Below are positions 29,976 to 51,164 of a stretch of 64,000 bases of DNA, piece after piece (positions within the stretch are counted from its first letter, which is position 1; every line of letters begins with the position of its first letter). Made by a program: the position numbers and the translations under genes. A model generated the notes under the pieces. That model ran no database searches and had not been told where the DNA came from. It saw only the letters and a list, made by a program, of their open reading frames with translations. The stretch lies in NCBI RefSeq assembly GCF_003018255.1, contig NZ_CP027440.1. One strand, given 5' to 3'. Origin of the DNA: Escherichia coli (GTDB lineage Bacteria > Pseudomonadota > Gammaproteobacteria > Enterobacterales > Enterobacteriaceae).

Positions 29976-30075
29976 GCCTGATGCGCTACGCTTATCAGGC
30001 CTACATGATTTCTGCAATATATTGAATTTGGTAGAATTTGTAGGCCGGATAAGGCGTTTTAGCCGCATCCGGCAT
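29976..30075. repeat. REP/BIME palindromic units between avtA and ysaA
   Basis: GCCTGATGCGCTACGCTTATCAGGCCTAC and GTAGGCCGGATAAGGCG...CGCATCCGGCA match REP consensus. Confidence 0.8.
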
Positions 30076-39825: not shown

Positions 39826-40641
39826 CTACGAATTGATATGTTCCTTGCTGTAACGTCGCTTCCACGCAGCTGGCGTTAAACCGGTGTGTTTGCGAAAAAT
39901 CTGTCGGAAATAGCCAACGTCATTAAACCCGCACAACGCAGCCACTTCAGTGAGCGATCGCGCTTCGCTAATTAACAGCTTTTCGGCTTCGCGCACTCGC
40001 TGGCGATGAATTGCTTCTGTTAACGTCAGATGAAACACCCGCCGGTAGACGCGCCCAAGATAATCGGCATTGCAGTACAGCTCGCGGGCTAAAAGCGCCG
40101 TAGAAAGCGGGCGATGATATTGCGTGCGAATCAGTTTCTGCGCTTTCCAGGCAAGCGTGGTACCTGCGGCATCGGCCTGTTCATCAAGACGCGCGTCACG
40201 GGTGAGCTGCTGCAAAATCAGCAGCACAATAAACTCCAGCGCCGGAGTGCGTTGATGCTTTTCCTGTTCGCTTAAGAACTGGCGAAACAGGGCCACCAGC
40301 GCCTGCGGATCGGCAACCTTCGTTTGTTGCGGCACGCTAAGATGAGTGAGCCAGCGCGGGTCGCTATCCGGCGCTTTAACCTCAAAATGCAGCCAGTAAA
40401 ATTTGAGATCGGCGGGAAAATCCTCTACCCCAACATGCTGTCGGTTCGGCCAGAGTAATAAACTCTCTCCCGCATCGACCAGAAATATCCGCTCTTCTTC
40501 CTGAATCGTTAATCGACCTTTTTCGACAAAGATAATTTCCCATGACTCCAGCCGCCTTGCCGGGTGCCTCCCTACGCCACGGGAAATAAATAATCCACCA
40601 TTTTGCACTTTAATCGGTAACGTCATGGATAATTCGAGCAT
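39826..40641 (-). CDS. AraC/XylS-family transcriptional regulator (accessory; absent from K-12 at this position)
   Basis: 271-aa ORF; cupin-like N domain and C-terminal AraC HTH (...EVAALCGFNDVGYFRQIFRKHTGLTPAAWKRR); alternative start MTLPIK at 40626. Confidence 0.8.
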   Translation of the reverse strand: MLELSMTLPIKVQNGGLFISRGVGRHPARRLESWEIIFVEKGRLTIQEEERIFLVDAGESLLLWPNRQHVGVEDFPADLKFYWLHFEVKAPDSDPRWLTHLSVPQQTKVADPQALVALFRQFLSEQEKHQRTPALEFIVLLILQQLTRDARLDEQADAAGTTLAWKAQKLIRTQYHRPLSTALLARELYCNADYLGRVYRRVFHLTLTEAIHRQRVREAEKLLISEARSLTEVAALCGFNDVGYFRQIFRKHTGLTPAAWKRRYSKEHINS

Positions 40642-40866
40642 TGATATGTAATTTCCCGCTTATTCATTAATGATTAAACACATTACCTTTTGATTATTAA
40701 TCAAAAACATTAATTTCACCTGATCCATTTCACACTTTTAAATTCAGGTCGGAATCGTCACCTTTTTTTACTCTTTTCTCGCCTTGTTGATATTCCCGTT
40801 CACGGCAGAATTAATCAGGTCATTGCAATAAAACTAAAAATTGCTCCCTATTCACGAGGAATATCT
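40642..40866. promoter_or_regulatory. Divergent promoter region of the accessory cassette, containing palindrome TTGATTA-T-TAATCAA
   Basis: AT-rich 225-bp intergenic region; 15-bp inverted repeat at about 40700-40714. Confidence 0.4.
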
Positions 40867-42267
40867 ATGACCTCTACACCGATTACTGCCGCTGATATCG
40901 CTAAAGGTAAAATTGACGATGCGTTATCTGTACGGGAAAAAATAGGCTACGGCCTGGGTGACGCAGGCGGCACCGTAATAACTTGCCTGATCATGAACTT
41001 TCTCACCTTTTTCTACACCGACGTTTTTGGCTTAACTCCGGCGCTGGTCGGCACGCTGTTTATTGCACTGCGCGTGTTTGATGCCATCTCCGACCCGGTG
41101 ATGGGCGTCATTGCCGACCGGACGCAAAGTCGCTGGGGGCGCTTTCGTCCGTGGCAGTTATGGATTGCCATTCCCATCGGCATTATCGGCATCCTGACGT
41201 TCACCGTGCCAGATGCCAGCATGGGAGTAAAAATCGCCTGGGCGTTCGGTACTTACCTGCTCCTTTCAGTCGGTTATACCGCCATCAACGTACCGTACTG
41301 CGCGCTGATCAACACCATGACCACCCGCCACAATGAAGTGATCTCCTGCCAGTCCTGGCGATTCGTTCTCTGCGGCGTAGCGGGATTTCTGGTTTCGGTT
41401 GGCCTGCCGTGGATGGTGGATCTCTTCGGTCAGGGTAATGCCGCGCGCGGCTATCAACTGGGCGTCGGCGTGCTGTGCGCCATTGCCGTGGTGATGTTCC
41501 TGTGCTGTTTCTTCTGGGTTCGTGAACGGGTGCCACTCTCCACAATGGGGAAATTTACCCTGCGCGAACATCTTGCCGGGCTGCGGAACAACGACCAACT
41601 GCTGCTGATGCTGGTCATGTCTTTCCTGCTGATTAACGTCTTTAATATTCGCGGCGGTGGGTATATGTACTTCATTACCTACGTCTTACAAGGCAGTACG
41701 GGCTACACGTCGCTGTTCTTCACCATGGTCACCTTCGCCTCCATTATCGGCTCGGTGATTGTCAGCCCGTTAACGCGGCGTTTCGATACCGTCAAAATTT
41801 ACTACTACACCAACCTGCTCCTCGCTGCGCTGGCGGTGTTGATGTGGTTCCTGCCTTCTGGCCCGGCTTATCAAACGCTGTGGCTGGCGGTGATCCTCGG
41901 TAATGGCGTGATTCTTGGCTTCACATTGCCACTGCACTTCTCATTGATGGCCTTTGCCGATGACTACGGCGAGTGGAAAACCCGCGTACGTTCTTCCGGC
42001 ATGAACTTCGCCTTCAATCTGTTTTTCATCAAGCTGGCATGGGCCTCCAGCGCCGGGATCATCAGCCTGCTGTTTATTTTTGTCGCCTACCAGCCAGGCG
42101 TGGAAAACCAGACCACCAGTTCGCTTGGCGGGATCACGGCGATGGAAACATTACTGCCTGCGCTATTCCACCTGCTGCTGGCAGGGGCGATCCGCTTTTG
42201 CAAACTCAATAACCCTATGATGTCACGCATTGCTAGCGACCTGCGTCAGCGTCATGTACAGCCTTAA
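40867..42267 (+). CDS. GPH-family glycoside/pentoside/hexuronide:cation symporter (MelB/YicJ-like)
   Basis: 466-aa 12-TM ORF with GPH signatures ([23 protein letters not shown]). Confidence 0.85.
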
Positions 42268-42277
42268 GGAGCACAAG

Positions 42278-44257
42278 ATGAACATTTCGGAAGTCGATCT
42301 GCATAAACTGACGGTCAGCGATCCGTTCCTCGGTCAGTACCAACAACTGGTCCGCGATGTGGTGATTCCTTATCAGTGGGACGCCTTGAACGATCGTATC
42401 CCAGAAGCGGAACCCAGCCATGCGATTGAAAACTTTCGCATTGCCGCAGGACTGCAAGACGGTGAATTTTACGGGATGGTGTTTCAGGACAGCGACGTCG
42501 CCAAATGGCTGGAAGCGGTAGCCTGGTCGCTGTGCCAGAAGCCGGATGCCGAACTGGAAAAAACCGCTGACGAGGTGATTGAACTGATCGCCTCCGCCCA
42601 GTGCGAAGATGGCTATCTCAATGCTTACTTTACGGTAAAAGCGCCCGAAGAACGCTGGAGCAATCTGGCGGAGTGTCATGAACTTTACTGCGCCGGTCAT
42701 CTGATTGAAGCCGGAGTCGCCTTCTTCCAGGCCACGGGAAAACGGCGCTTGCTGGAAGTGGTTTGCCGTCTGGCCGATCATATCGACAGCGTATTTGGTC
42801 CAGGTGAAAGTAAGTTACACGGTTATCCTGGTCACCCGGAAATTGAACTGGCACTAATGCGCCTGTATGAAGTGACCGAAGAGCCGCGCTACCTGGCGCT
42901 GACGAACTATTTTGTCGAACAGCGTGGTGCGCAACCGCACTATTACGACCAGGAATATGAAAAGCGCGGGCAGACCTCGCACTGGCACACCTACGGCCCG
43001 GCGTGGATGGTGAAAGATAAAGCCTACAGCCAAGCGCATTTGCCCATCGCACAGCAACAAACCGCCATCGGACATACAGTACGCTTTGTATATCTGATGA
43101 CTGGCGTCGCACATCTCGCGCGTTTAAGTCACGATGAAAGCAAGCGTCAGGATTGCCTGCGGCTGTGGAACAATATGGCCCAGCGTCAGTTATATATTAC
43201 CGGCGGCATTGGCTCACAAAGCAGCGGCGAAGCGTTCAGCAGCGATTACGATCTGCCGAATGACACGGTTTACGCCGAAAGTTGTGCTTCCATCGGCCTG
43301 ATGATGTTCGCCCGGCGAATGCTGGAAATGGAAGGCGACAGTCAATATGCCGATGTGATGGAGCGCGCACTGTACAACACTGTGCTCGGCGGCATGGCGC
43401 TGGATGGCAAACATTTCTTCTACGTTAATCCGCTGGAAGTGCATCCAAAAACGTTAAAATTCAACCATATCTACGATCACGTTAAGCCGATCCGCCAGCG
43501 TTGGTTTGGTTGCGCTTGTTGTCCGCCAAATATCGCCCGCGTGCTAACCTCGATTGGTCATTATCTCTACACGCCGCGTGAAGATGCGTTGTATATCAAC
43601 ATCTACGCAGGAAACAGCATGGAAGTGCCGGTAGAAAATGGCACGCTGCGTCTGCGGGTTAGCGGAAACTATCCGTGGCAGGAACAGGTGACAATTGCGG
43701 TTGAATCGCCCCAGCCGGTGCGTCATACGCTGGCTTTACGTCTGCCGGACTGGTGCACACAGCCGCAGATCATATTGAATGGGGAAGAGGTCGAGCAGGA
43801 TATTCGTAAAGGGTATTTGCACATTACCCGCGAATGGCAGGAGGGCGACACGCTGAATCTGACTTTGCCAATGCCGGTACGTCGCGTTTACGGTAACCCT
43901 CTGGTGCGTCACGTCGCCGGAAAAGTGGCGATTCAGCGCGGCCCGCTGGTGTATTGCCTGGAACAGGCCGACAACGGCGAGTCACTGCATAATCTGTGGC
44001 TGCCCGCCGATGCGCCATTTACGACATTTGAAGGTAAGGGATTGTTCCGCCATAAGATCTTAATCCAGGCACCGGGTTATCGGTATGAACAGAGCAATCC
44101 AGAGCAGCAACCGCTGTGGCATTACGACAGCGCGCCAGCCAAACGCCAGCCGCAAACCCTGACCTTTATCCCGTGGTTTAGCTGGGCCAACCGGGGTGAA
44201 GGCGAAATGCGGATCTGGGTGAATGAGGAAAAGCATTGCCATCCGGAGGTTGGATAA
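42278..44257 (+). CDS. Glycoside hydrolase family 127-like protein (DUF1680; putative beta-L-arabinofuranosidase)
   Basis: ORF frame from 42230; likely start MNISEVDLHK at 42278 after RBS AAGGA; contains WFGCACCPPN cysteine motif typical of HypBA1-like GH127. Confidence 0.75.
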   Translation: MNISEVDLHKLTVSDPFLGQYQQLVRDVVIPYQWDALNDRIPEAEPSHAIENFRIAAGLQDGEFYGMVFQDSDVAKWLEAVAWSLCQKPDAELEKTADEVIELIASAQCEDGYLNAYFTVKAPEERWSNLAECHELYCAGHLIEAGVAFFQATGKRRLLEVVCRLADHIDSVFGPGESKLHGYPGHPEIELALMRLYEVTEEPRYLALTNYFVEQRGAQPHYYDQEYEKRGQTSHWHTYGPAWMVKDKAYSQAHLPIAQQQTAIGHTVRFVYLMTGVAHLARLSHDESKRQDCLRLWNNMAQRQLYITGGIGSQSSGEAFSSDYDLPNDTVYAESCASIGLMMFARRMLEMEGDSQYADVMERALYNTVLGGMALDGKHFFYVNPLEVHPKTLKFNHIYDHVKPIRQRWFGCACCPPNIARVLTSIGHYLYTPREDALYINIYAGNSMEVPVENGTLRLRVSGNYPWQEQVTIAVESPQPVRHTLALRLPDWCTQPQIILNGEEVEQDIRKGYLHITREWQEGDTLNLTLPMPVRRVYGNPLVRHVAGKVAIQRGPLVYCLEQADNGESLHNLWLPADAPFTTFEGKGLFRHKILIQAPGYRYEQSNPEQQPLWHYDSAPAKRQPQTLTFIPWFSWANRGEGEMRIWVNEEKHCHPEVG

Positions 44258-45241: not shown

Positions 45242-46216
45242 ATGACAAAATTACAACTTAAGTACCGGGAGTTAAAAATTATCTCGGTAATCGCTGCCAG
45301 TGAAAATATCAGCCATGCCGCGACTGTACTTGGCATCGCACAGGCCAACGTCAGCAAATATCTTGCTGATTTTGAATCAAAAGTGGGTTTAAAAGTCTTT
45401 GACCGAACCACCCGACAGCTGATGCTCACACCTTTTGGCACCGTGCTGTTACCGTATATCAACGACATGCTGGACAGAAACGAGCAGCTTAATAATTTTA
45501 TTGCAGATTATAAGCATGAGAAACGTGGTCGGGTCACTATCTATGCACCAACCGGCATAATTACCTATTTATCCAAACATGTAATCGATAAAATTAAAGA
45601 TATCGGTGATATCACCTTATCGCTAAAAACCTGCAATCTTGAGCGTAATGCCTTTTATGAAGGCGTCGAATTTCCCGATGATTGTGATGTTTTAATCAGC
45701 TACGCCCAACCAAAAGATGAATCGCTGGTTGCCAGTTTTATTACCCAATATGCCGTAACCGCTTATGCCAGCCAGCGCTATCTTGAGAAACATCCCATTA
45801 GCCGTCCTGACGAACTCGAACATCACTCCTGTATTTTGATCGACTCGATGATGATCGACGACGCGAATATCTGGCGCTTCAACGTCGCCGGGAGTAAAGA
45901 GGTGCGGGATTATCGCGTGAAGGGAAATTACGTTTGCGACAACACGCAATCTGCGCTGGAGCTGGCACGAAATCACCTGGGGATTGTGTTTGCGCCAGAC
46001 AAAAGTGTGCAGAGCGACCTGCAAGACGGCACGCTGGTGCCCTGCTTTCAGCACCCGTATGAATGGTGGCTGGATCTGGTGGCTATCTTCCGTAAACGGG
46101 AATACCAGCCCTGGCGGGTCCAGTATGTGCTGGATGAAATGCTGCGTGAAATTCGCCACCAGCTTGCTCAGTCGCAGCAACTGCGGCCTGAACAAGCGGC
46201 GGAAAGCGAAGATTAA
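45242..46216 (+). CDS. yiaU: LysR-family transcriptional regulator YiaU
   Basis: 324-aa ORF with N-terminal LysR HTH; divergent from yiaT. Confidence 0.88.
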
Positions 46217-47349
46217 TGATCGAGATAAAGGTAATGCACCCAGCTGGTCATGCGTAACAGTACTTTGCGCATCACCGAGACATGGCTGAAATGATCAGAA
46301 TAGACCGCCACCTGGGCGTAAATACCGTCTGGTAATGCGCTCAAATCAGTATGCTCATCCAGTTCAATGGTCGCGATAACGCCATCTGAACCCGGCGCTG
46401 TGTTTAACGTCTGTAAGGTGCCGGTCGACTGATAAGCTCCACCGGGAACAGCTGGACTAATGGCTGCCAGCTTACCGCTGAACACTTTGCCTGGCAGAGC
46501 GTTAAATACCACTTCCGCATCATCGCCGGGAGCCAGGCGCAGCAAGGAGTTCTGACGGAACTGCGCCACGATTTGTCGTTTCTGATCGGGTATAAACACC
46601 ATCACCGGACGTAGCGGCAGCGACGCGGCATAGGTACCCGGACGAATCAGCACCTGGGTCACATAACCATCGCTCGGCGCACGCACTATCGTCTGCTCAA
46701 GGTTATATTTTGCTTCCGCGAGCTGCGCTTTCAGGCTGGCGATTTGAGAATGTTCACCCAACACCAGGCTATCCAGCTGGCTCTGGATCTGTTTTTGTTC
46801 CGCCGCCGCTGATTTTACGGAGGCTTCCTGCGCCAGATAATTTTGCCGCGCCACATCGATATCGCGTTCTGAAAACGGGTTTACTTTCGCCTGGCTGCCA
46901 CGTGCGTAACGCTGATACTCTTTAGCGAACTTATCCCGCGTGGCCTTTGCCTGCTGAGTATTCGCCGCCATCTCATCTAACTCTGCGCCCAACGCCCGCT
47001 GTTTATGTTCTGCGGTAACGATATCCGCCATCAGCCGATCCACCCGAGCCTGATAACGCGTCGGGTCCAGTCGAAATAGCACCTCACCTTTTTTAATCAG
47101 CGTATTTTTCTTGTCCGTCACTTCGATCACCACGCCTGTCACCTGTGGGACAACAGGAATAGAAATAACCGCTTTTTGCGCTTTAAAGGTATACGGATGG
47201 TTATAGTTCATTAACAGAATTAGACCGCTGACAATAAATATGCCTCCCAGGGCCGCTGTGGGAATGGTCCATTTATTTACAGGAATTTTGAAGATCTTAA
47301 ACATTGCCCATGCGAAAGCCACATAGGTTAAAATAATCAGTAAATCCAT
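46213..47349 (-). CDS. yiaV: HlyD-family membrane fusion protein YiaV
   Basis: 378-aa ORF; N-terminal TM anchor then coiled-coil; paralogue of YibH in this window. Confidence 0.9.
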
Positions 47350-47354
47350 AAGTA

Positions 47355-47678
47355 TTACTCGGCAGAAGAGGATTTGATGTCAGCGAGCTGTTTCTCCAGC
47401 CCGGCAATACGCTGTTGTAGTTGCACAACGGAGGAGTCATGGTTTTGCATTCCCCATCCACGCTCCGGGCGGTAAAGCGTGGCCCAAATCCACAAAAATG
47501 GCCAGATAACATGTAACGTAAAAAGACTCACCCAACCAGCAACATGAATGGCGTCGGCATGAGGATGATTACGTTTTTTGGCAATCAGGTAGGGAACATC
47601 ATGTAAAATAATAATCCCATAGAATATCACCAGAAATACAAAAATAAGCACTCCCAATGCAAAATAATCCAGGAACAT
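47355..47678 (-). CDS. yiaW: Inner membrane protein YiaW (DUF3302)
   Basis: ORF frame to 47708; probable start [15 protein letters not shown] (107 aa); 5 bp upstream of yiaV. Confidence 0.82.
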
Positions 47679-47791
47679 ATTTCCCTCAGAGAATATAGAA
47701 AAGAACAATTAACGCATATTATGAAATACCATAATGCGGTGCAATTTCCTTATTTATATAACGACATATTGTTTTTTATATACTTTCTGAA

Positions 47792-48004
47792 GTGTGCAGC
47801 CTGGCTTTTCAACAGTGCGAGGCTTATCATATTGAAATAATGGAACTATTGGCCAAACTAATGAATAACTCCAGTAAAACATCCACAGTACAGATTAAGC
47901 GTATTAAACCTTCAATTATCTACCGTTTATTGCTGATTGGCCTCGGAACGCCAATGGTGATTTATGGCCTGGTTCGCCCGCTCACCATCGAAACGCGAGA
48001 TTAA
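47792..48004 (+). CDS. Hypothetical small protein with C-terminal hydrophobic segment
   Basis: 70-aa ORF (internal Met starts possible) in an otherwise non-coding gap; predicted TM helix IIYRLLLIGLGTPMVIYGLV; no family recognised. Confidence 0.25.
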   Translation: MCSLAFQQCEAYHIEIMELLAKLMNNSSKTSTVQIKRIKPSIIYRLLLIGLGTPMVIYGLVRPLTIETRD

Positions 48005-48109
48005 ACTCCTGGCAAAACACGCCCCAGAAACGCACTTCTGTTGACGTAGTCTGGGTTATTGCGCACGTAGGTTTAAAACGTAAATTGTAACAACGTGCGC
48101 TTTGTTTAT

Positions 48110-48190
48110 GCCGGATGCGGCGTGTACGCCTTATCCGGCCTACGGTCAGGTCCCCGTAGGCATGATAAGACGCGTAAGCGTCGCATCAGG
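48110..48190. repeat. REP palindromic units between yiaW and aldB
   Basis: GCCGGATGCGGCGTGTACGCCTTATCCGGCCTAC and GTAGGCATGATAAGACGCGTAAGCGTCGCATCAGGC. Confidence 0.8.
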
Positions 48191-48222
48191 CAATGAATAC
48201 CCAATGCGACCAGCTTCTTATA

Positions 48223-49761
48223 TCAGAACAGCCCCAACGGTTTATCCGAGTAGCTCACCAGCAGGCACTTGGTTTGCTGGTAATGCTCAAGCATCATCTT
48301 GTGGGTTTCGCGTCCGATGCCCGACTGTTTGTAGCCACCAAACGCCGCATGTGCCGGGTAAGCGTGATAACAATTGGTCCACACGCGCCCTGCCTGTATG
48401 CCGCGCCCCATCTTATAGGCAAGATTACCGTTGCGGCTCCAGACGCCCGCGCCCAGGCCATATTGCGTATCGTTCGCCAGCTCCAGCGCTTCTTCCATCG
48501 TTTTGAAGGTGGTCACCGCCAGCACCGGGCCAAAAATCTCCTCCTGGAACACGCGCATATTGTTCTGACCAAACAAAATCGTCGGTTCGAGGTAGTAGCC
48601 GTCTTTCAGTTCACCTTCCAGCAGCTTGCGCCGCCCGCCAGTGAGCACGTCTGCGCCCTCTTTTTTACCGATATCAATGTAGTTGAGGATGGTTTCCAGT
48701 TGCCCGTGAGAAACCTGCGCCCCCATTTGCGTCACGCTGTCGAGCGGGTTACCGCTGCGAATGCTTTCGACACGGCGGATGGCGCGTTCCATAAAGCGTT
48801 CGTAGATAGACTCCTGCACTAAAGCACGGCTTGGACAGGTGCAAACTTCGCCCTGGTTAAAGGCAAACAGTGCAAAGCCTTCCAGCGCTTTATCGAAAAA
48901 GGCATCTTCTTCATCCATTACGTCAGCAAAGAAGATATTTGGCGATTTGCCACCCAGCTCCAGCGTCACCGGAATAATGTTTTGCGTGGCGTATTGCATA
49001 ATTTGTTGGCCCACTTCCGTTGAGCCGGTAAACGCCACTTTGGCGATGCGTTTCGAGGTCGCCAGATATTCGCCAATTTCCCCACCTGCGCCGTTGACCA
49101 CGTTCACCACGCCCGGCGGCAGTAAATCACCGACGATTTCCATTAGCAGCAGTACAGAAAGCGGGGTAAGACGTGCGGGTTTCAGCACCACACAGTTGCC
49201 CGCCGCCAGCGCGGGAGCCATTTTCCAGCTCGCCATCAGCAGCGGGAAGTTCCACGGAATAATCTGCCCCACCACGCCTAACGGCTCATGGAAATGATAG
49301 GCCACGGTTTCGCTATCAACTTCACTGATCCCACCTTCCTGCGCCCGAATACACGAGGCAAAATAGCGAAAATGATCAATCGCCAGCGGCACATCAGCAG
49401 CACTGGTTTCGCGAATGGGTTTGCCGTTATCCCAGGTTTCAGCGGTCGCTAACAGTTCAAGGTTTTGTTCCATTCGATCGGCAATCTTAAACAGAATCGC
49501 CGCACGATCCTGCACCGAGGTGTGCGCCCATTTATCTTTCACTTTGTGCGCAGCATCCAGCGCCAGATCGATGTCTCGTTTGCCCGAAGACGCCACTTCG
49601 CACAGCAGCTGCCCGGTCACCGGCGTCAGGTTCTGGTAATACTCGCCATCGGCAGGCGCTACCCATTCGCCACCGATAAAGTTGTCGTAGCGGGCTTTTA
49701 ATTTGAGGGGGAAACCATACTCGCCGGGCTTAATCTGTGCTGAAGGGGGATTATTGGTCAT
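48223..49761 (-). CDS. aldB: Aldehyde dehydrogenase B
   Basis: ORF frame to 49851; start [33 protein letters not shown] at 49761 (512 aa). Confidence 0.95.
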
Positions 49762-49868
49762 GATCGTCTCCTTGCGGTGTGAGGTATAACAAGGGTAGAC
49801 GTGACTGGCGAAATCTTCGCCAGTCGGTAACAGCTTTACGACGGCTATCACGAATTTACGGGCAAAAG

Positions 49869-51164
49869 CTACAGCGGGTAGTGTGCGACGTACACGGCTT
49901 GCTGGTTATTAATTCTTTTCTCTTGCGCGAATCCTTCTTTAACAATTGTCCGTAAATCAGCTCGAGCCGTATTATCAGAGACGCCCAAGCTCGCGCTAAT
50001 TTCAGCAACTGTGTACTCTTTCCCCGGATTGGCGAGCATCACATTCAGGAGCGTTACCTGGCGCGGATTCAGGCGTTTAAGCACACCAGAGCTAAACAGC
50101 ACACTATCGAGTTTTGCGCTTCGTTGTGTAATTTCATCGATATGCTGCTGCCAGTTTTGCAGAGCACGTTTAATGACACCCGCCTGATATTCAAGGAAAT
50201 AAGTCAGATCCATACCATCTGATTCAGTGTACTGGTAGCTGGCGGCATATTTGACCGGTGCAGCATGAAGCAAACGGCTGATGGAAATATATTTAAAGAC
50301 ATCGTAGCCCGATTTCAGCATATACCAGTAAAACAGCGCCCGACTGGTGCGCCCGTTGCCATCGCGAAACGGATGTTCATGGGCCAGCATAAAATGCAGA
50401 ATGCAGGCACGGACCAACGGATGAATATACCCTTCATGGCTGTTTAACCACTGGCAAACTTTTTCCAGCCGTTCCGGTAACAATGCCGCAGCGGGCGGTT
50501 GATGCACTATATTGCCATCATAGTCGGCGATCACAACATCATCTGTTTCACGAAATTCTCCCGGACGATATTTCGCGTCATTGATTCCACCCATACCAAT
50601 GGCATGTAACTGGCGAATAAGCGCAGGTGTCAGCGGTTCTGCGAGTAAGTGCGGAATTTCCGCCATCAGCCGGGCATTTCCCGCAATCATATGCTCGTCT
50701 TCAGTGCGTGGCGACCGCCCTGTTTCCAGCATTTTTCTCGCCACCAGCGTTGTAGTATTCGCACCTTCCAGTTGGGAACTGGTGATCGGCTCTTCCAGGC
50801 GTAACTGACTTAACTCGGCGCCCGCCCCGCGTAACCGTTCAGTCTGATCTTTCAGCGCCAGTGCAGTGGCATGTTTATCAACAAGCTCGCACGCTTCTGC
50901 AATCACCGGCGTAATGTTGAATCCGGCCTGTTCACCCGCTTCATTGCAATAATTAATTCGTTGGATCGCCGCGTTGCGCGCCAGACGGGTAAGCGTCCAC
51001 GCCACATCGACGTTTTCTCCTTTTTTGATGCGGTACTGCAGCTCATCAAAAGGCAGATAACGTCCTTTTTCATCGGTAACCCGGTTAAAGCGCAGGTGGG
51101 CCAGGAGTTCCTCACCCGATAAGTGTGATAAAGGAATAAGTCCGGGAGGTGATTTGATAGCCAT
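49869..51164 (-). CDS. Fic-domain protein (putative AMP-transferase) with N-terminal inhibitory-helix-like motif and probable C-terminal winged-helix domain; accessory
   Basis: 431-aa ORF containing canonical Fic motif [12 protein letters not shown] and upstream SSQLEG matching [ST]xxxE[GN]; not between aldB and yiaY in K-12 as far as I recall. Confidence 0.8.

What the first reader, a model, noticed from the sequence alone, without database searches (positions are those of the whole stretch)
47709..48222. Unannotated 70-aa ORF and REP cluster between yiaW and aldB
The gap holds a 213-bp ORF with a single predicted TM helix, followed by two REP palindromes. It may encode a small membrane protein or be a spurious ORF in the promoter region.
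Basis: seen in the sequence. Interest (0 to 1): 0.3.

Follow-up and report, generated by a model that had tools for sequence, protein, structure and literature searches.

The report
Truncated relic of a membrane-protein gene
The small open reading frame between yiaW and aldB is what remains of a conserved 104-residue membrane-protein gene after an in-frame 171-base deletion. It sits beside a stump of a deleted hicAB toxin-antitoxin pair and two REP repeats, so it is decaying gene debris, not a new small-protein gene.

Summary
The 213-nt GTG ORF (47792-48004, +) and two REP palindromes (48110-48143 +, 48156-48191 -) lie in the E. coli yiaW-aldB gap (47679-48222).

The ORF is neither a chance ORF nor a new small-protein gene. 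Its coding core is the 47-codon ATG ORF 47861-48004, which NCBI's PGAP pipeline already annotates as "hypothetical protein" in many E. coli genomes. That core is an in-frame deletion allele of a 104-aa, two-transmembrane-helix protein gene: 171 nt (57 codons) are missing between short direct repeats, GCCTGGTT(T/C)GC.

The intact gene survives in 28 of 5426 complete E. coli genomes, in E. whittamii and in Escherichia sp. E1V33. Citrobacter amalonaticus and C. farmeri carry it at the same yiaW|gene|aldB position, and Franconibacter-like DNA carries it next to aldB. The family has 286 cluster representatives and no Pfam or NCBIfam model.

The intact gene is under purifying selection (dN/dS about 0.1). 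The truncated alleles have 15 nonsynonymous and 7 synonymous changes, indistinguishable from neutral.

The minus strand at 48001-48072 is a 23-codon stump of the hicB antitoxin gene. The REP pair occupies the site of the hicAB deletion.

A 2016 tetracycline ribosome-profiling study lists this ATG in K-12 as a weak initiation site. Low interest.

The parts
47355..47678 (-). yiaW (DUF3302 protein, 107 aa). This is the left flank. The annotated start is ATG 47678.
   Evidence: RefSeq annotation of a 100%-identical sequence. ORF list.
47740..47783 (.). A 44-nt element upstream of yiaW. It is the only part of the gap conserved in Citrobacter and Pseudocitrobacter. It is probably the core or regulatory site of the yiaWV promoter.
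   Evidence: blastn of the gap against yiaW loci of other genera gives 78-89% identity over about 44 nt in 16 species. It is also present in C. amalonaticus between yiaW and the 104-aa gene.
47775..47803 (-). Position of the sigma-70 promoter of yiaWV reported by genomic SELEX (CAGACA-17-TATAAA in K-12). The window has CAGGCT as the -35 hexamer.
   Evidence: PMC3946193 lists this promoter and an H-NS site in the yiaW/aldB spacer. I mapped the hexamers onto the K-12/window alignment.
47792..47860 (+). It is most likely not coding.
   Evidence: It is the most polymorphic part of the gap (21 of 77 sites segregate). K-12 differs here by 5 amino acids. Other alleles are frameshifted or indel-bearing here. 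The Citrobacter and Franconibacter orthologues start at the MNN/MNK methionine.
47861..48004 (+). A 47-codon ORF, MNNSSKTSTVQIKRIKPSIIYRLLLIGLGTPMVIYGLVRPLTIETRD. It is the in-frame deletion remnant of a 104-aa two-transmembrane-helix protein gene and keeps residues 1-38 and 96-104.
   Evidence: Alignments with the full-length genes. PGAP annotation. Listed as a candidate initiation site by tetracycline ribosome profiling (TetRP) in K-12. N:S = 15:7.
47967..47977 (+). The deletion junction, GCCTGGTTCGC. It is the single surviving copy of a direct repeat that flanks the missing 171 nt in the full-length genes.
   Evidence: E. whittamii and E1V33 have GCCTGGTTTGC ... GCCTGGTTCGC, 171 nt apart. 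The full-length gene is 315 nt and the window ORF 144 nt.
48001..48072 (-). Remnant of the hicB antitoxin gene: the last 23 codons plus the stop (TYVRNNPDYVNRSAFLGRVLPGV*), with an internal 12-nt deletion. Its stop overlaps the stop of the + strand ORF.
   Evidence: Alignment and translation against the intact hicB of strain CB6886. tblastn finds HicB residues 108/110-134/135 in L006 and L008. The same left breakpoint is present in the intermediate strain L091.
48110..48143 (+). REP element.
   Evidence: 1 mismatch to the REP consensus; 0 matches in shuffles. Inverted repeats. Sub-threshold naRNA4 hit.
48156..48191 (-). REP element in the opposite orientation. Together with the first REP it forms a pair of the kind called a BIME (bacterial interspersed mosaic element), just downstream of the aldB stop codon.
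   Evidence: 1 mismatch to the REP consensus; 0 matches in shuffles..
48223..49761 (-). aldB (aldehyde dehydrogenase B). This is the right flank.
   Evidence: RefSeq annotation of an identical sequence. ORF list.

Best explanation
The yiaW-aldB gap holds the debris of two genes.

The older arrangement was yiaW(-) | a 104-aa two-transmembrane-helix inner-membrane protein gene (+) | aldB(-). Citrobacter amalonaticus and C. farmeri still have it. In the Escherichia lineage a hicA-hicB toxin-antitoxin pair came to lie between that gene and aldB, giving yiaW | gene | hicB hicA | aldB. Some E. coli strains and Escherichia sp. E1V33 still have this form.

In the lineage leading to the window strain and K-12, three changes followed:
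- hicAB was deleted. The last 23 codons of hicB remain, and a REP pair sits at the scar.
- 171 nt (57 codons) of the membrane-protein gene were lost by recombination or slippage between two copies of GCCTGGTT(T/C)GC. The loss is in frame and leaves residues 1-38 fused to residues 96-104.
- 12 more nucleotides were lost from the hicB stump.

The resulting 47-codon ORF keeps the original start codon and one hydrophobic helix. Ribosomes still initiate there weakly. It has lost the loop and the second helix of the hairpin fold, and it now evolves without detectable constraint on the protein. It is best described as a young pseudogene (gene remnant) that stays open because it is short and recent.

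The deletion structure, the synteny and the contrast in selection are shown by the data. The order of events is inferred from intermediate strains. Loss of function is inferred, not shown.
For: Deletion structure:
- E. whittamii (L008) and Escherichia sp. E1V33 (L007) align with the window over 47679-47977, then carry an extra 171 nt, then resume at 47967. The overlap is the 11-nt repeat.
- Translation gives an uninterrupted 104-aa protein (127 aa from an upstream start codon).

Intact alleles in E. coli:
- Protein cluster P0049 is the full-length form. Its loci L088-L090 read yiaW | 127-aa ORF | hicB | hicA | aldB.
- L091 has the full ORF but hicAB already deleted, with the same breakpoint as the window.

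Population counts in 5426 complete E. coli genomes:
- 28 carry the 171-nt segment.
- About 3805 carry the ORF region.
- 506 carry intact hicBA.

Orthologues:
- C. amalonaticus/farmeri P0210 (104 aa; its 50%-identity cluster representative is 58% identical to the E. coli protein) lies in the same yiaW | gene | aldB position.
- The Franconibacter-like P0051 (103 aa, 50% identity) lies convergent with aldB.

Family and fold:
- A profile search found 286 cluster representatives at E<=1e-3 and 76 at E<=1e-10, mostly 95-130 aa.
- AlphaFold2 with an 84-sequence alignment gave pLDDT 88.5 and pTM 0.69, with helices at 17-44 and 59-95.

Selection:
- The full-length gene has dN/dS of 0.09-0.13 between E. 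coli, E. whittamii and E1V33. yiaW has 0.11.
- In 14 E. coli genomes the truncated ORF has 15 nonsynonymous and 7 synonymous changes. This does not differ from the neutral expectation (binomial p=0.29).
- It does differ from yiaW in the same genomes (3:19, Fisher p=5e-4) and from the full-length gene (8:21, p=0.005). The changes include G27V and G29R in the helix.
- Frameshifted and truncated protein variants also exist.

hicB stump.
REPs.
Against: The 47-codon frame is open in all 14 E. coli alleles examined. The segment QIKRIKPSIIYRLLLIGL is nearly invariant among protein clusters.

The K-12 ATG passed both thresholds of a tetracycline ribosome-profiling screen (TetRP 11.75; PMC4909307 Table S5). 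The remnant is therefore still transcribed and bound by ribosomes.

A pN/pS of 0.67 and an N:S of 15:7 lie numerically below the neutral expectation. With so few sites, weak constraint cannot be excluded.

Two junction variants (Arg-CGC and Cys-TGC) could mean that the truncation arose twice. That would hint that truncation is favoured and is not merely tolerated.

The alleles in the first set of eight were chosen for their divergence in the ORF, which may inflate diversity, though not obviously the N:S ratio.
Confidence: 0.8

Rival explanations
1. The 47-aa product is a functional single-pass small membrane protein. In this reading the truncation created, or preserved, a useful micro-protein that selection keeps in most E. 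coli.
For: The ORF is open in all 14 alleles sequenced and present in about 70% of complete genomes. It has a hydrophobic helix. K-12 shows a translation-initiation signal at its ATG. The N:S ratio is numerically below neutral. Two junction types may indicate recurrent truncation.
Against: The N:S ratio of 15:7 is statistically neutral. It is significantly worse than that of the parent gene and of yiaW. Radical changes fall in the helix (G27V, G29R, T30I/S/P/A), and rare alleles are frameshifted.

The ribosome-binding site is weak: no Shine-Dalgarno sequence precedes the ATG, and the paper's RBS score is -2.29. CmRP, the chloramphenicol ribosome-profiling value reported beside TetRP, is 0 at this site.

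The ORF is not among the sORFs listed in one later Ribo-seq study. The curated K-12 record has no gene here.

A 144-nt ORF that has diverged only a few per cent is expected to stay open by chance.
Confidence: 0.13
2. The ORF is a chance ORF in the AT-rich yiaW promoter region and has no coding ancestry.
For: The 5' third (47792-47860) overlaps the yiaWV promoter mapped by SELEX. It is hypervariable. Many other short ORFs occur in the same gap.
Against: The core is collinear, codon for codon, with a 104-aa gene that is under purifying selection in three Escherichia species. That gene has orthologues at 50-58% identity in Citrobacter and Franconibacter at the same locus.
Confidence: 0.02
3. What matters is the act of transcribing or translating the remnant, not its product. 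Antisense transcription or ribosome loading across 47861-48004 would modulate the divergent yiaWV promoter or the 3' end of the convergent aldB mRNA.
For: The ORF is antisense to both neighbours, and its 5' region abuts the yiaWV promoter. A ribosome-initiation signal was recorded with no elongation signal. The authors of that study raise such roles in general terms.
Against: Nothing here tests it. About 30% of E. coli lack the segment altogether. Citrobacter of the freundii group keep yiaW next to aldB without it. The simple scan found no + strand promoter.
Confidence: 0.05

Closest known systems
Unnamed family of roughly 100-125-aa two-transmembrane-helix bacterial membrane proteins (for example Citrobacter amalonaticus/farmeri WP_200016490.1 "hypothetical / inner membrane protein", Franconibacter WP_024553640.1, E. 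coli 127-aa "DXT09_02410")
   Same: The window ORF is collinear with residues 1-38 and 96-104 of these proteins. It sits at the same chromosomal position (yiaW | gene | aldB) as the Citrobacter and full-length Escherichia genes.
   Different: It lacks 57 internal codons, which encode the end of helix 1, the periplasmic or loop hairpin and all of helix 2. With them go the nearly invariant G46, G59 and G88-L-W positions. Its alleles are not under the purifying selection seen in the full-length genes. The family has no Pfam or NCBIfam model and no known function.
HicAB type II toxin-antitoxin module (HicB antitoxin, PF15919; HicA toxin, PF07927)
   Same: The minus strand at 48001-48072 encodes the last 23 residues of the HicB found at this locus in 506 E. 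coli genomes. The downstream sequence is also shared.
   Different: Only the C-terminal stump remains, and it carries an internal 12-nt deletion. hicA, the hicB 5' part and the promoter are gone. It is not a functional module.
REP elements paired as BIMEs (bacterial interspersed mosaic elements) of E. coli
   Same: Two roughly 35-nt imperfect palindromes lie in opposite orientation, 12 nt apart, immediately downstream of a gene's stop codon. Each is one mismatch from the REP consensus. Copies occur elsewhere in the window and several times per genome.
   Different: Nothing unusual. The only special point is that the pair lies exactly where hicAB was lost. The REP consensus I used was recalled from memory, not taken from a curated library.
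Intergenic sORF candidates from tetracycline-inhibited ribosome profiling (Nakahigashi et al. 2016, PMC4909307)
   Same: The K-12 allele of this exact 47-aa ORF is entry 120 of their Table S5 (start 3752634 in U00096.2).
   Different: The table types it only as "sORF". It does not name its origin or relatives. The authors note that some candidates are pseudogene fragments and that many may be non-functional.

Membership tests
Roughly 104-aa two-TM membrane protein family (unnamed; no Pfam model) | Sequence homology to family members over the N-terminal strand and helix 1 | tested here: met
   Residues 1-38 are 84-98% identical to the full-length Escherichia proteins and align with Citrobacter and Franconibacter members.
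Roughly 104-aa two-TM membrane protein family (unnamed; no Pfam model) | Complete helical-hairpin architecture: helix 17-44, loop hairpin, helix 59-95, and the conserved G46, G59 and G88-L-W positions | tested here: not met
   The window ORF lacks residues 39-95 (171 nt).
Roughly 104-aa two-TM membrane protein family (unnamed; no Pfam model) | Purifying selection on the protein | tested here: not met
   The truncated alleles have N:S 15:7, neutral by a binomial test (p=0.29). The full-length genes have 8:21 and dN/dS about 0.1.
DUF3566 (a label that UniRef gives one Franconibacter member) | A match to the Pfam model | tested here: not met
   No DUF3566 hit for the E. coli, Citrobacter or Franconibacter proteins, even at E<=10.
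REP elements / BIME pairs | A roughly 35-nt imperfect palindrome matching the REP consensus, repeated in the genome | tested here: met
   1 mismatch each, 0 expected by chance. Another copy lies at 30040-30073. The query matches a median of 3 places per genome.
REP elements / BIME pairs | Extragenic location at a gene's 3' end, with two REPs in inverted orientation | tested here: met
   48110-48143 (+) and 48156-48191 (-), ending 32 nt from the aldB stop.
naRNA4 / CssrE (Rfam RF02564) | Score at or above the family's gathering threshold | tested here: not met
   The best score is 38.6 bits against a threshold of 59.5. The hits reflect REP similarity only.
HicB antitoxin (PF15919) | A complete antitoxin gene paired with hicA | tested here: not met
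   Only the last 23 codons are present, and hicA is absent.
Validated E. coli small proteins (50 aa or fewer) | Direct detection of the protein by tag or mass spectrometry | not testable with these tools
   Only a TetRP initiation signal is on record (TetRP 11.75, CmRP 0). The ORF is not listed in the sORF table of a later Ribo-seq study. Other Ribo-seq supplements were unavailable or cut.

The most novel reading that the evidence does not exclude
The truncation was selected for, not merely tolerated. In this reading the in-frame deletion arose at least twice, which would explain the Arg and Cys junction types. It then swept through most E. coli because the 47-aa single-helix product, which ribosomes still initiate on, gained a new role. 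One possibility is as a small modulator of a membrane complex such as the neighbouring YiaWV system.
Probability: 0.08. Interest if true: 0.55.

Novelty: new member of a known kind. Interest (0 to 1): 0.22.

Why it matters
This is mainly an annotation result. A "hypothetical protein" that PGAP calls in thousands of E. coli genomes, and that a ribosome-profiling screen flagged as a candidate small protein in K-12, now has an explanation. It is the in-frame-deleted remnant of a conserved but uncharacterised 104-aa membrane-protein gene, and a hicB stump lies next to it.

It is also a cautionary example for small-protein discovery. An open frame, a transmembrane helix, within-species conservation and a ribosome-initiation signal can all belong to a decaying gene.

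As a by-product, the work points to a widespread family of two-transmembrane-helix proteins with no Pfam model. It also shows that the yiaW-aldB junction is a hotspot of gene gain and loss in Escherichia.

Tried and rejected
- Rfam scan of 46000-50500: only sub-threshold, REP-derived naRNA4 hits and no RNA gene.
- Pfam and NCBIfam scans of the 70-aa ORF, the 127/104-aa protein and 84 family members: no family. The scattered weak hits to transporters are noise from membrane composition.
- Gene neighbourhoods of four distant family members: no shared partner genes, so context gave no functional clue.
- Simple promoter and terminator scan of the gap: no + strand promoter for the ORF and no convincing terminator.
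- Ribo-seq literature:
  - The Stringer et al. supplement is cut and covers only the start of the genome.
  - The Weaver et al. preprint has no supplementary file held as text. The published versions of both papers are not held.
  - The sORF table of the mSystems 2023 study does not list this ORF.
- The yiaW papers concern IS1 insertions in the yiaW coding region and are irrelevant here.
- Comparing identity-band distributions of the ORF, yiaW and an aldB piece of equal length did not discriminate between selection regimes. Codon-level counts were used instead.
- The idea that the ORF might be a type I toxin or part of the hicAB module was dropped. Orthologues exist at the same locus without hicAB.

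Full report
**Where the window comes from.** The window is E. coli. Positions 47650-48260 are 100% identical to many RefSeq chromosomes and 96% identical to K-12 MG1655 with no indels, so the K-12 coordinate is the window coordinate plus 3,706,750.

In those records the neighbours are yiaV, yiaW (47355-47678, -), aldB (48223-49761, -), and then a Fic-family gene and yiaY. Both flanking genes are on the minus strand. The 544-bp gap (47679-48222) is therefore the aldB 3' region followed by the yiaWV promoter region, and the reported ORF runs antisense to both genes.

**Checking the observation.** The ORF at 47792-48004 (GTG start, 213 nt, 70 aa) is present. It contains in-frame ATGs at 47838 and 47861 and one hydrophobic stretch.

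Two REP elements follow it, at 48110-48143 (+) and 48156-48191 (-). Each is one mismatch from a REP consensus that I wrote from memory, and none is expected by chance. They form an inverted pair. They explain the sub-threshold Rfam hits to the REP-derived family naRNA4.

The curated MG1655 record has no gene in the gap. PGAP, however, annotates a "hypothetical protein" there in many genomes, most often the 47-codon version 47861-48004 (WP_001066082.1).

**A hicB stump on the other strand.** In some E. coli strains a hicB-hicA toxin-antitoxin pair replaces the segment to the left of aldB. Window positions 47971-48072 align with the 3' end of that hicB and the sequence just downstream of it.

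The minus strand at 48001-48072 translates to TYVRNNPDYVNRSAFLGRVLPGV*. This is the HicB C-terminus with 12 nt missing. Homology to the hicB locus begins inside the + strand ORF, at its last 11 codons. That was the first sign that the ORF spans an old rearrangement.

**The ORF is a deletion allele of a longer gene.** I fetched yiaW loci from one genome per species and compared their yiaW-upstream regions with the gap.

- E. whittamii and Escherichia sp. E1V33 match the window from 47679 to 47977. They then carry 171 extra nucleotides and resume at 47967.
- The 11-nt overlap is a direct repeat: GCCTGGTTTGC on one side of the extra segment and GCCTGGTTCGC on the other.
- In those species the frame runs uninterrupted through the extra segment. 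It gives a 104-aa protein from the MNN methionine, or 127 aa from an upstream start codon.
- The window ORF equals residues 1-38 fused in frame to residues 96-104.
- Escherichia sp. MOD1-EC7003 has instead lost the 5' half of the gene. Strain CB6886 keeps only its last 33 nt or so.

**Intact alleles and intermediates within E. coli.** A protein search with the long form found full-length E. coli proteins (P0049) and a 50%-identical 103-aa homologue.

- The E. coli loci L088-L090 read yiaW(-) | 127-aa ORF(+) | hicB(-) hicA(-) | aldB(-).
- L091 has the full ORF but has already lost hicAB. Its left breakpoint is the same as the window's, and a REP pair sits at the site.
- This orders the events: hicAB deletion first, then the 171-nt and 12-nt deletions.

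Among 5426 complete E. coli genomes, 28 keep the 171-nt segment. About 3805 carry the ORF region, and 506 carry intact hicBA. The rest go from a GH127 (glycoside hydrolase family 127) gene, with or without hicBA, straight to aldB. Those inspected, including an ST131 strain, lack yiaTUVW.

**The parent gene is old and real.**

- Citrobacter amalonaticus and C. farmeri have a 104-aa orthologue at the same position between yiaW and aldB, with no hicAB. Its 50%-identity cluster representative is 58% identical to the E. coli protein.
- A Franconibacter-like contig has a 103-aa homologue convergent with aldB.
- These orthologues start at the methionine that corresponds to ATG 47861.
- A profile search of 1.84 billion cluster representatives found 286 relatives at E<=1e-3 and 76 at E<=1e-10, mostly 95-130 aa.
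- No Pfam or NCBIfam model matches any of 84 members.
- With that alignment AlphaFold2 gives a confident model (pLDDT 88.5, pTM 0.69). It has a short N-terminal strand, helix 17-44, a small loop hairpin, helix 59-95 and a C-terminal strand.
- The gene neighbourhoods of distant members share nothing. The family's function is therefore unknown.

**Selection.** Between E. coli, E. whittamii and E1V33 the full-length gene has dN/dS of 0.09-0.13, like yiaW at 0.11.

| Sequence | Genomes compared | Nonsynonymous : synonymous |
|---|---|---|
| Truncated 47-codon ORF | 14 E. coli (9 haplotypes) | 15 : 7 |
| yiaW | the same 14 E. coli | 3 : 19 |
| Full-length gene, all 104 codons | E. coli, E. whittamii, E1V33 | 8 : 21 |
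| Full-length gene, the 47 retained codons only | E. coli, E. whittamii, E1V33 | 5 : 13 |

The truncated ORF does not differ from the neutral expectation of about 3:1 (binomial p=0.29). It differs from yiaW (Fisher p=5e-4), from the full-length gene (p=0.005) and from the retained codons of the full-length gene (p=0.025).

The changes include G27V, G29R and T30I/S in the helix. Protein clusters add further replacements and a few frameshifted or truncated forms. The frame is open in all 14 alleles. For a 144-nt sequence only a few per cent diverged, that is expected without selection.

**The 5' extension.** The 23 codons between GTG 47792 and ATG 47861 are the most polymorphic stretch of the gap. 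They differ by five residues between the window and K-12.

They also overlap the sigma-70 promoter of yiaWV (CAGACA-17-TATAAA) and the H-NS site reported by genomic SELEX (PMC3946193). I mapped that promoter to 47775-47803 on the minus strand.

Only 47740-47783 is conserved in Citrobacter and Pseudocitrobacter. The extension is not part of the ancestral gene.

**Expression.** Table S5 of Nakahigashi et al. 2016 (PMC4909307) lists, as entry 120, an intergenic sORF starting at 3752634 (U00096.2, + strand) with the sequence MNNSSKTSTVQIKRIKPSIIYRLLLIGLGSPMVIYGLVRPLTIETRD. This is exactly the K-12 allele.

Its values are TetRP 11.75, CmRP 0 and a weak RBS score of -2.29. Ribosomes therefore still load at the ancestral start codon. 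The authors themselves note that some such sites are pseudogene fragments and that many may lack function.

The ORF is absent from the sORF table of a later Ribo-seq study.

**Conclusion.** The gap holds four things: the yiaWV promoter region, an in-frame-deleted remnant of a conserved two-transmembrane-helix protein gene, a stump of hicB, and a REP pair downstream of aldB.

The remnant origin is shown directly by the alignments. Loss of function is an inference from the missing half of the fold and from relaxed constraint.

A residual or new function for the 47-aa product cannot be excluded. I give that about 0.1-0.15. The two junction variants, Arg-CGC and Cys-TGC, remain unexplained. They could reflect two independent deletions or a later point mutation.

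Noticed in passing
window 48001-48072 (-): An unannotated remnant of a hicB antitoxin gene (last 23 codons plus the stop, with a 12-nt internal deletion). It is also present in K-12. Intact hicBA occupies this site in 506 of 5426 complete E. coli genomes.
   Followed up: yes
window 47740-47783: A 44-nt element upstream of yiaW, conserved at 78-89% in Citrobacter and Pseudocitrobacter while the rest of the gap is not. It contains ATAT-N6-ATAT and overlaps or abuts the yiaWV promoter mapped by SELEX. It could be a regulator-binding site, for example for the LysR-type regulator YiaU, but that is untested.
   Followed up: partly
window 47975-47977 (codon 39 of the 47-aa ORF): The deletion junction codon is CGC (Arg) in the window, K-12 and some other strains. 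It is TGC (Cys) in O157:H7, O145, O111:H8 and others. This fits either two crossover points within the 11-nt repeat (independent deletions) or a later T/C change.
   Followed up: partly
window 49869-51164 (-): A 431-aa Fic-family gene lies between aldB and yiaY. It is present in the window, in ST131 and in O157:H7 but absent from K-12 and several other strains. This is another variable insertion at the locus.
   Followed up: no
window 39826-44257: An AraC-regulator / MFS-transporter / GH127 glycoside-hydrolase cassette lies between sgbE and yiaT. It is absent from K-12. In ST131-like strains it abuts aldB directly, and yiaTUVW is missing.
   Followed up: partly
window 47679-47708 (-): The longest yiaW ORF starts at TTG 47708 (117 aa), but every RefSeq record uses ATG 47678 (107 aa).
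   Followed up: no
L100 5388-6751 (Citrobacter amalonaticus): In one C. amalonaticus genome an IS (transposase with an rve domain) is inserted between the 104-aa gene and aldB. That is the same spot where hicAB sits in Escherichia, which suggests an insertion hotspot downstream of aldB.
   Followed up: no
L108 (E. coli UTME-2), aldB: aldB is annotated as frameshifted (a pseudogene) in this strain.
   Followed up: no
window 30040-30073 (-): Another REP element, 3 mismatches from the consensus, elsewhere in the window.
   Followed up: no
protein family of P0053-P0196: The full-length 104-aa protein belongs to a widespread family: 286 cluster representatives, a confident AlphaFold2 two-helix hairpin model, no Pfam or NCBIfam model and no conserved gene neighbourhood. 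It is a candidate for a new family definition.
   Followed up: partly
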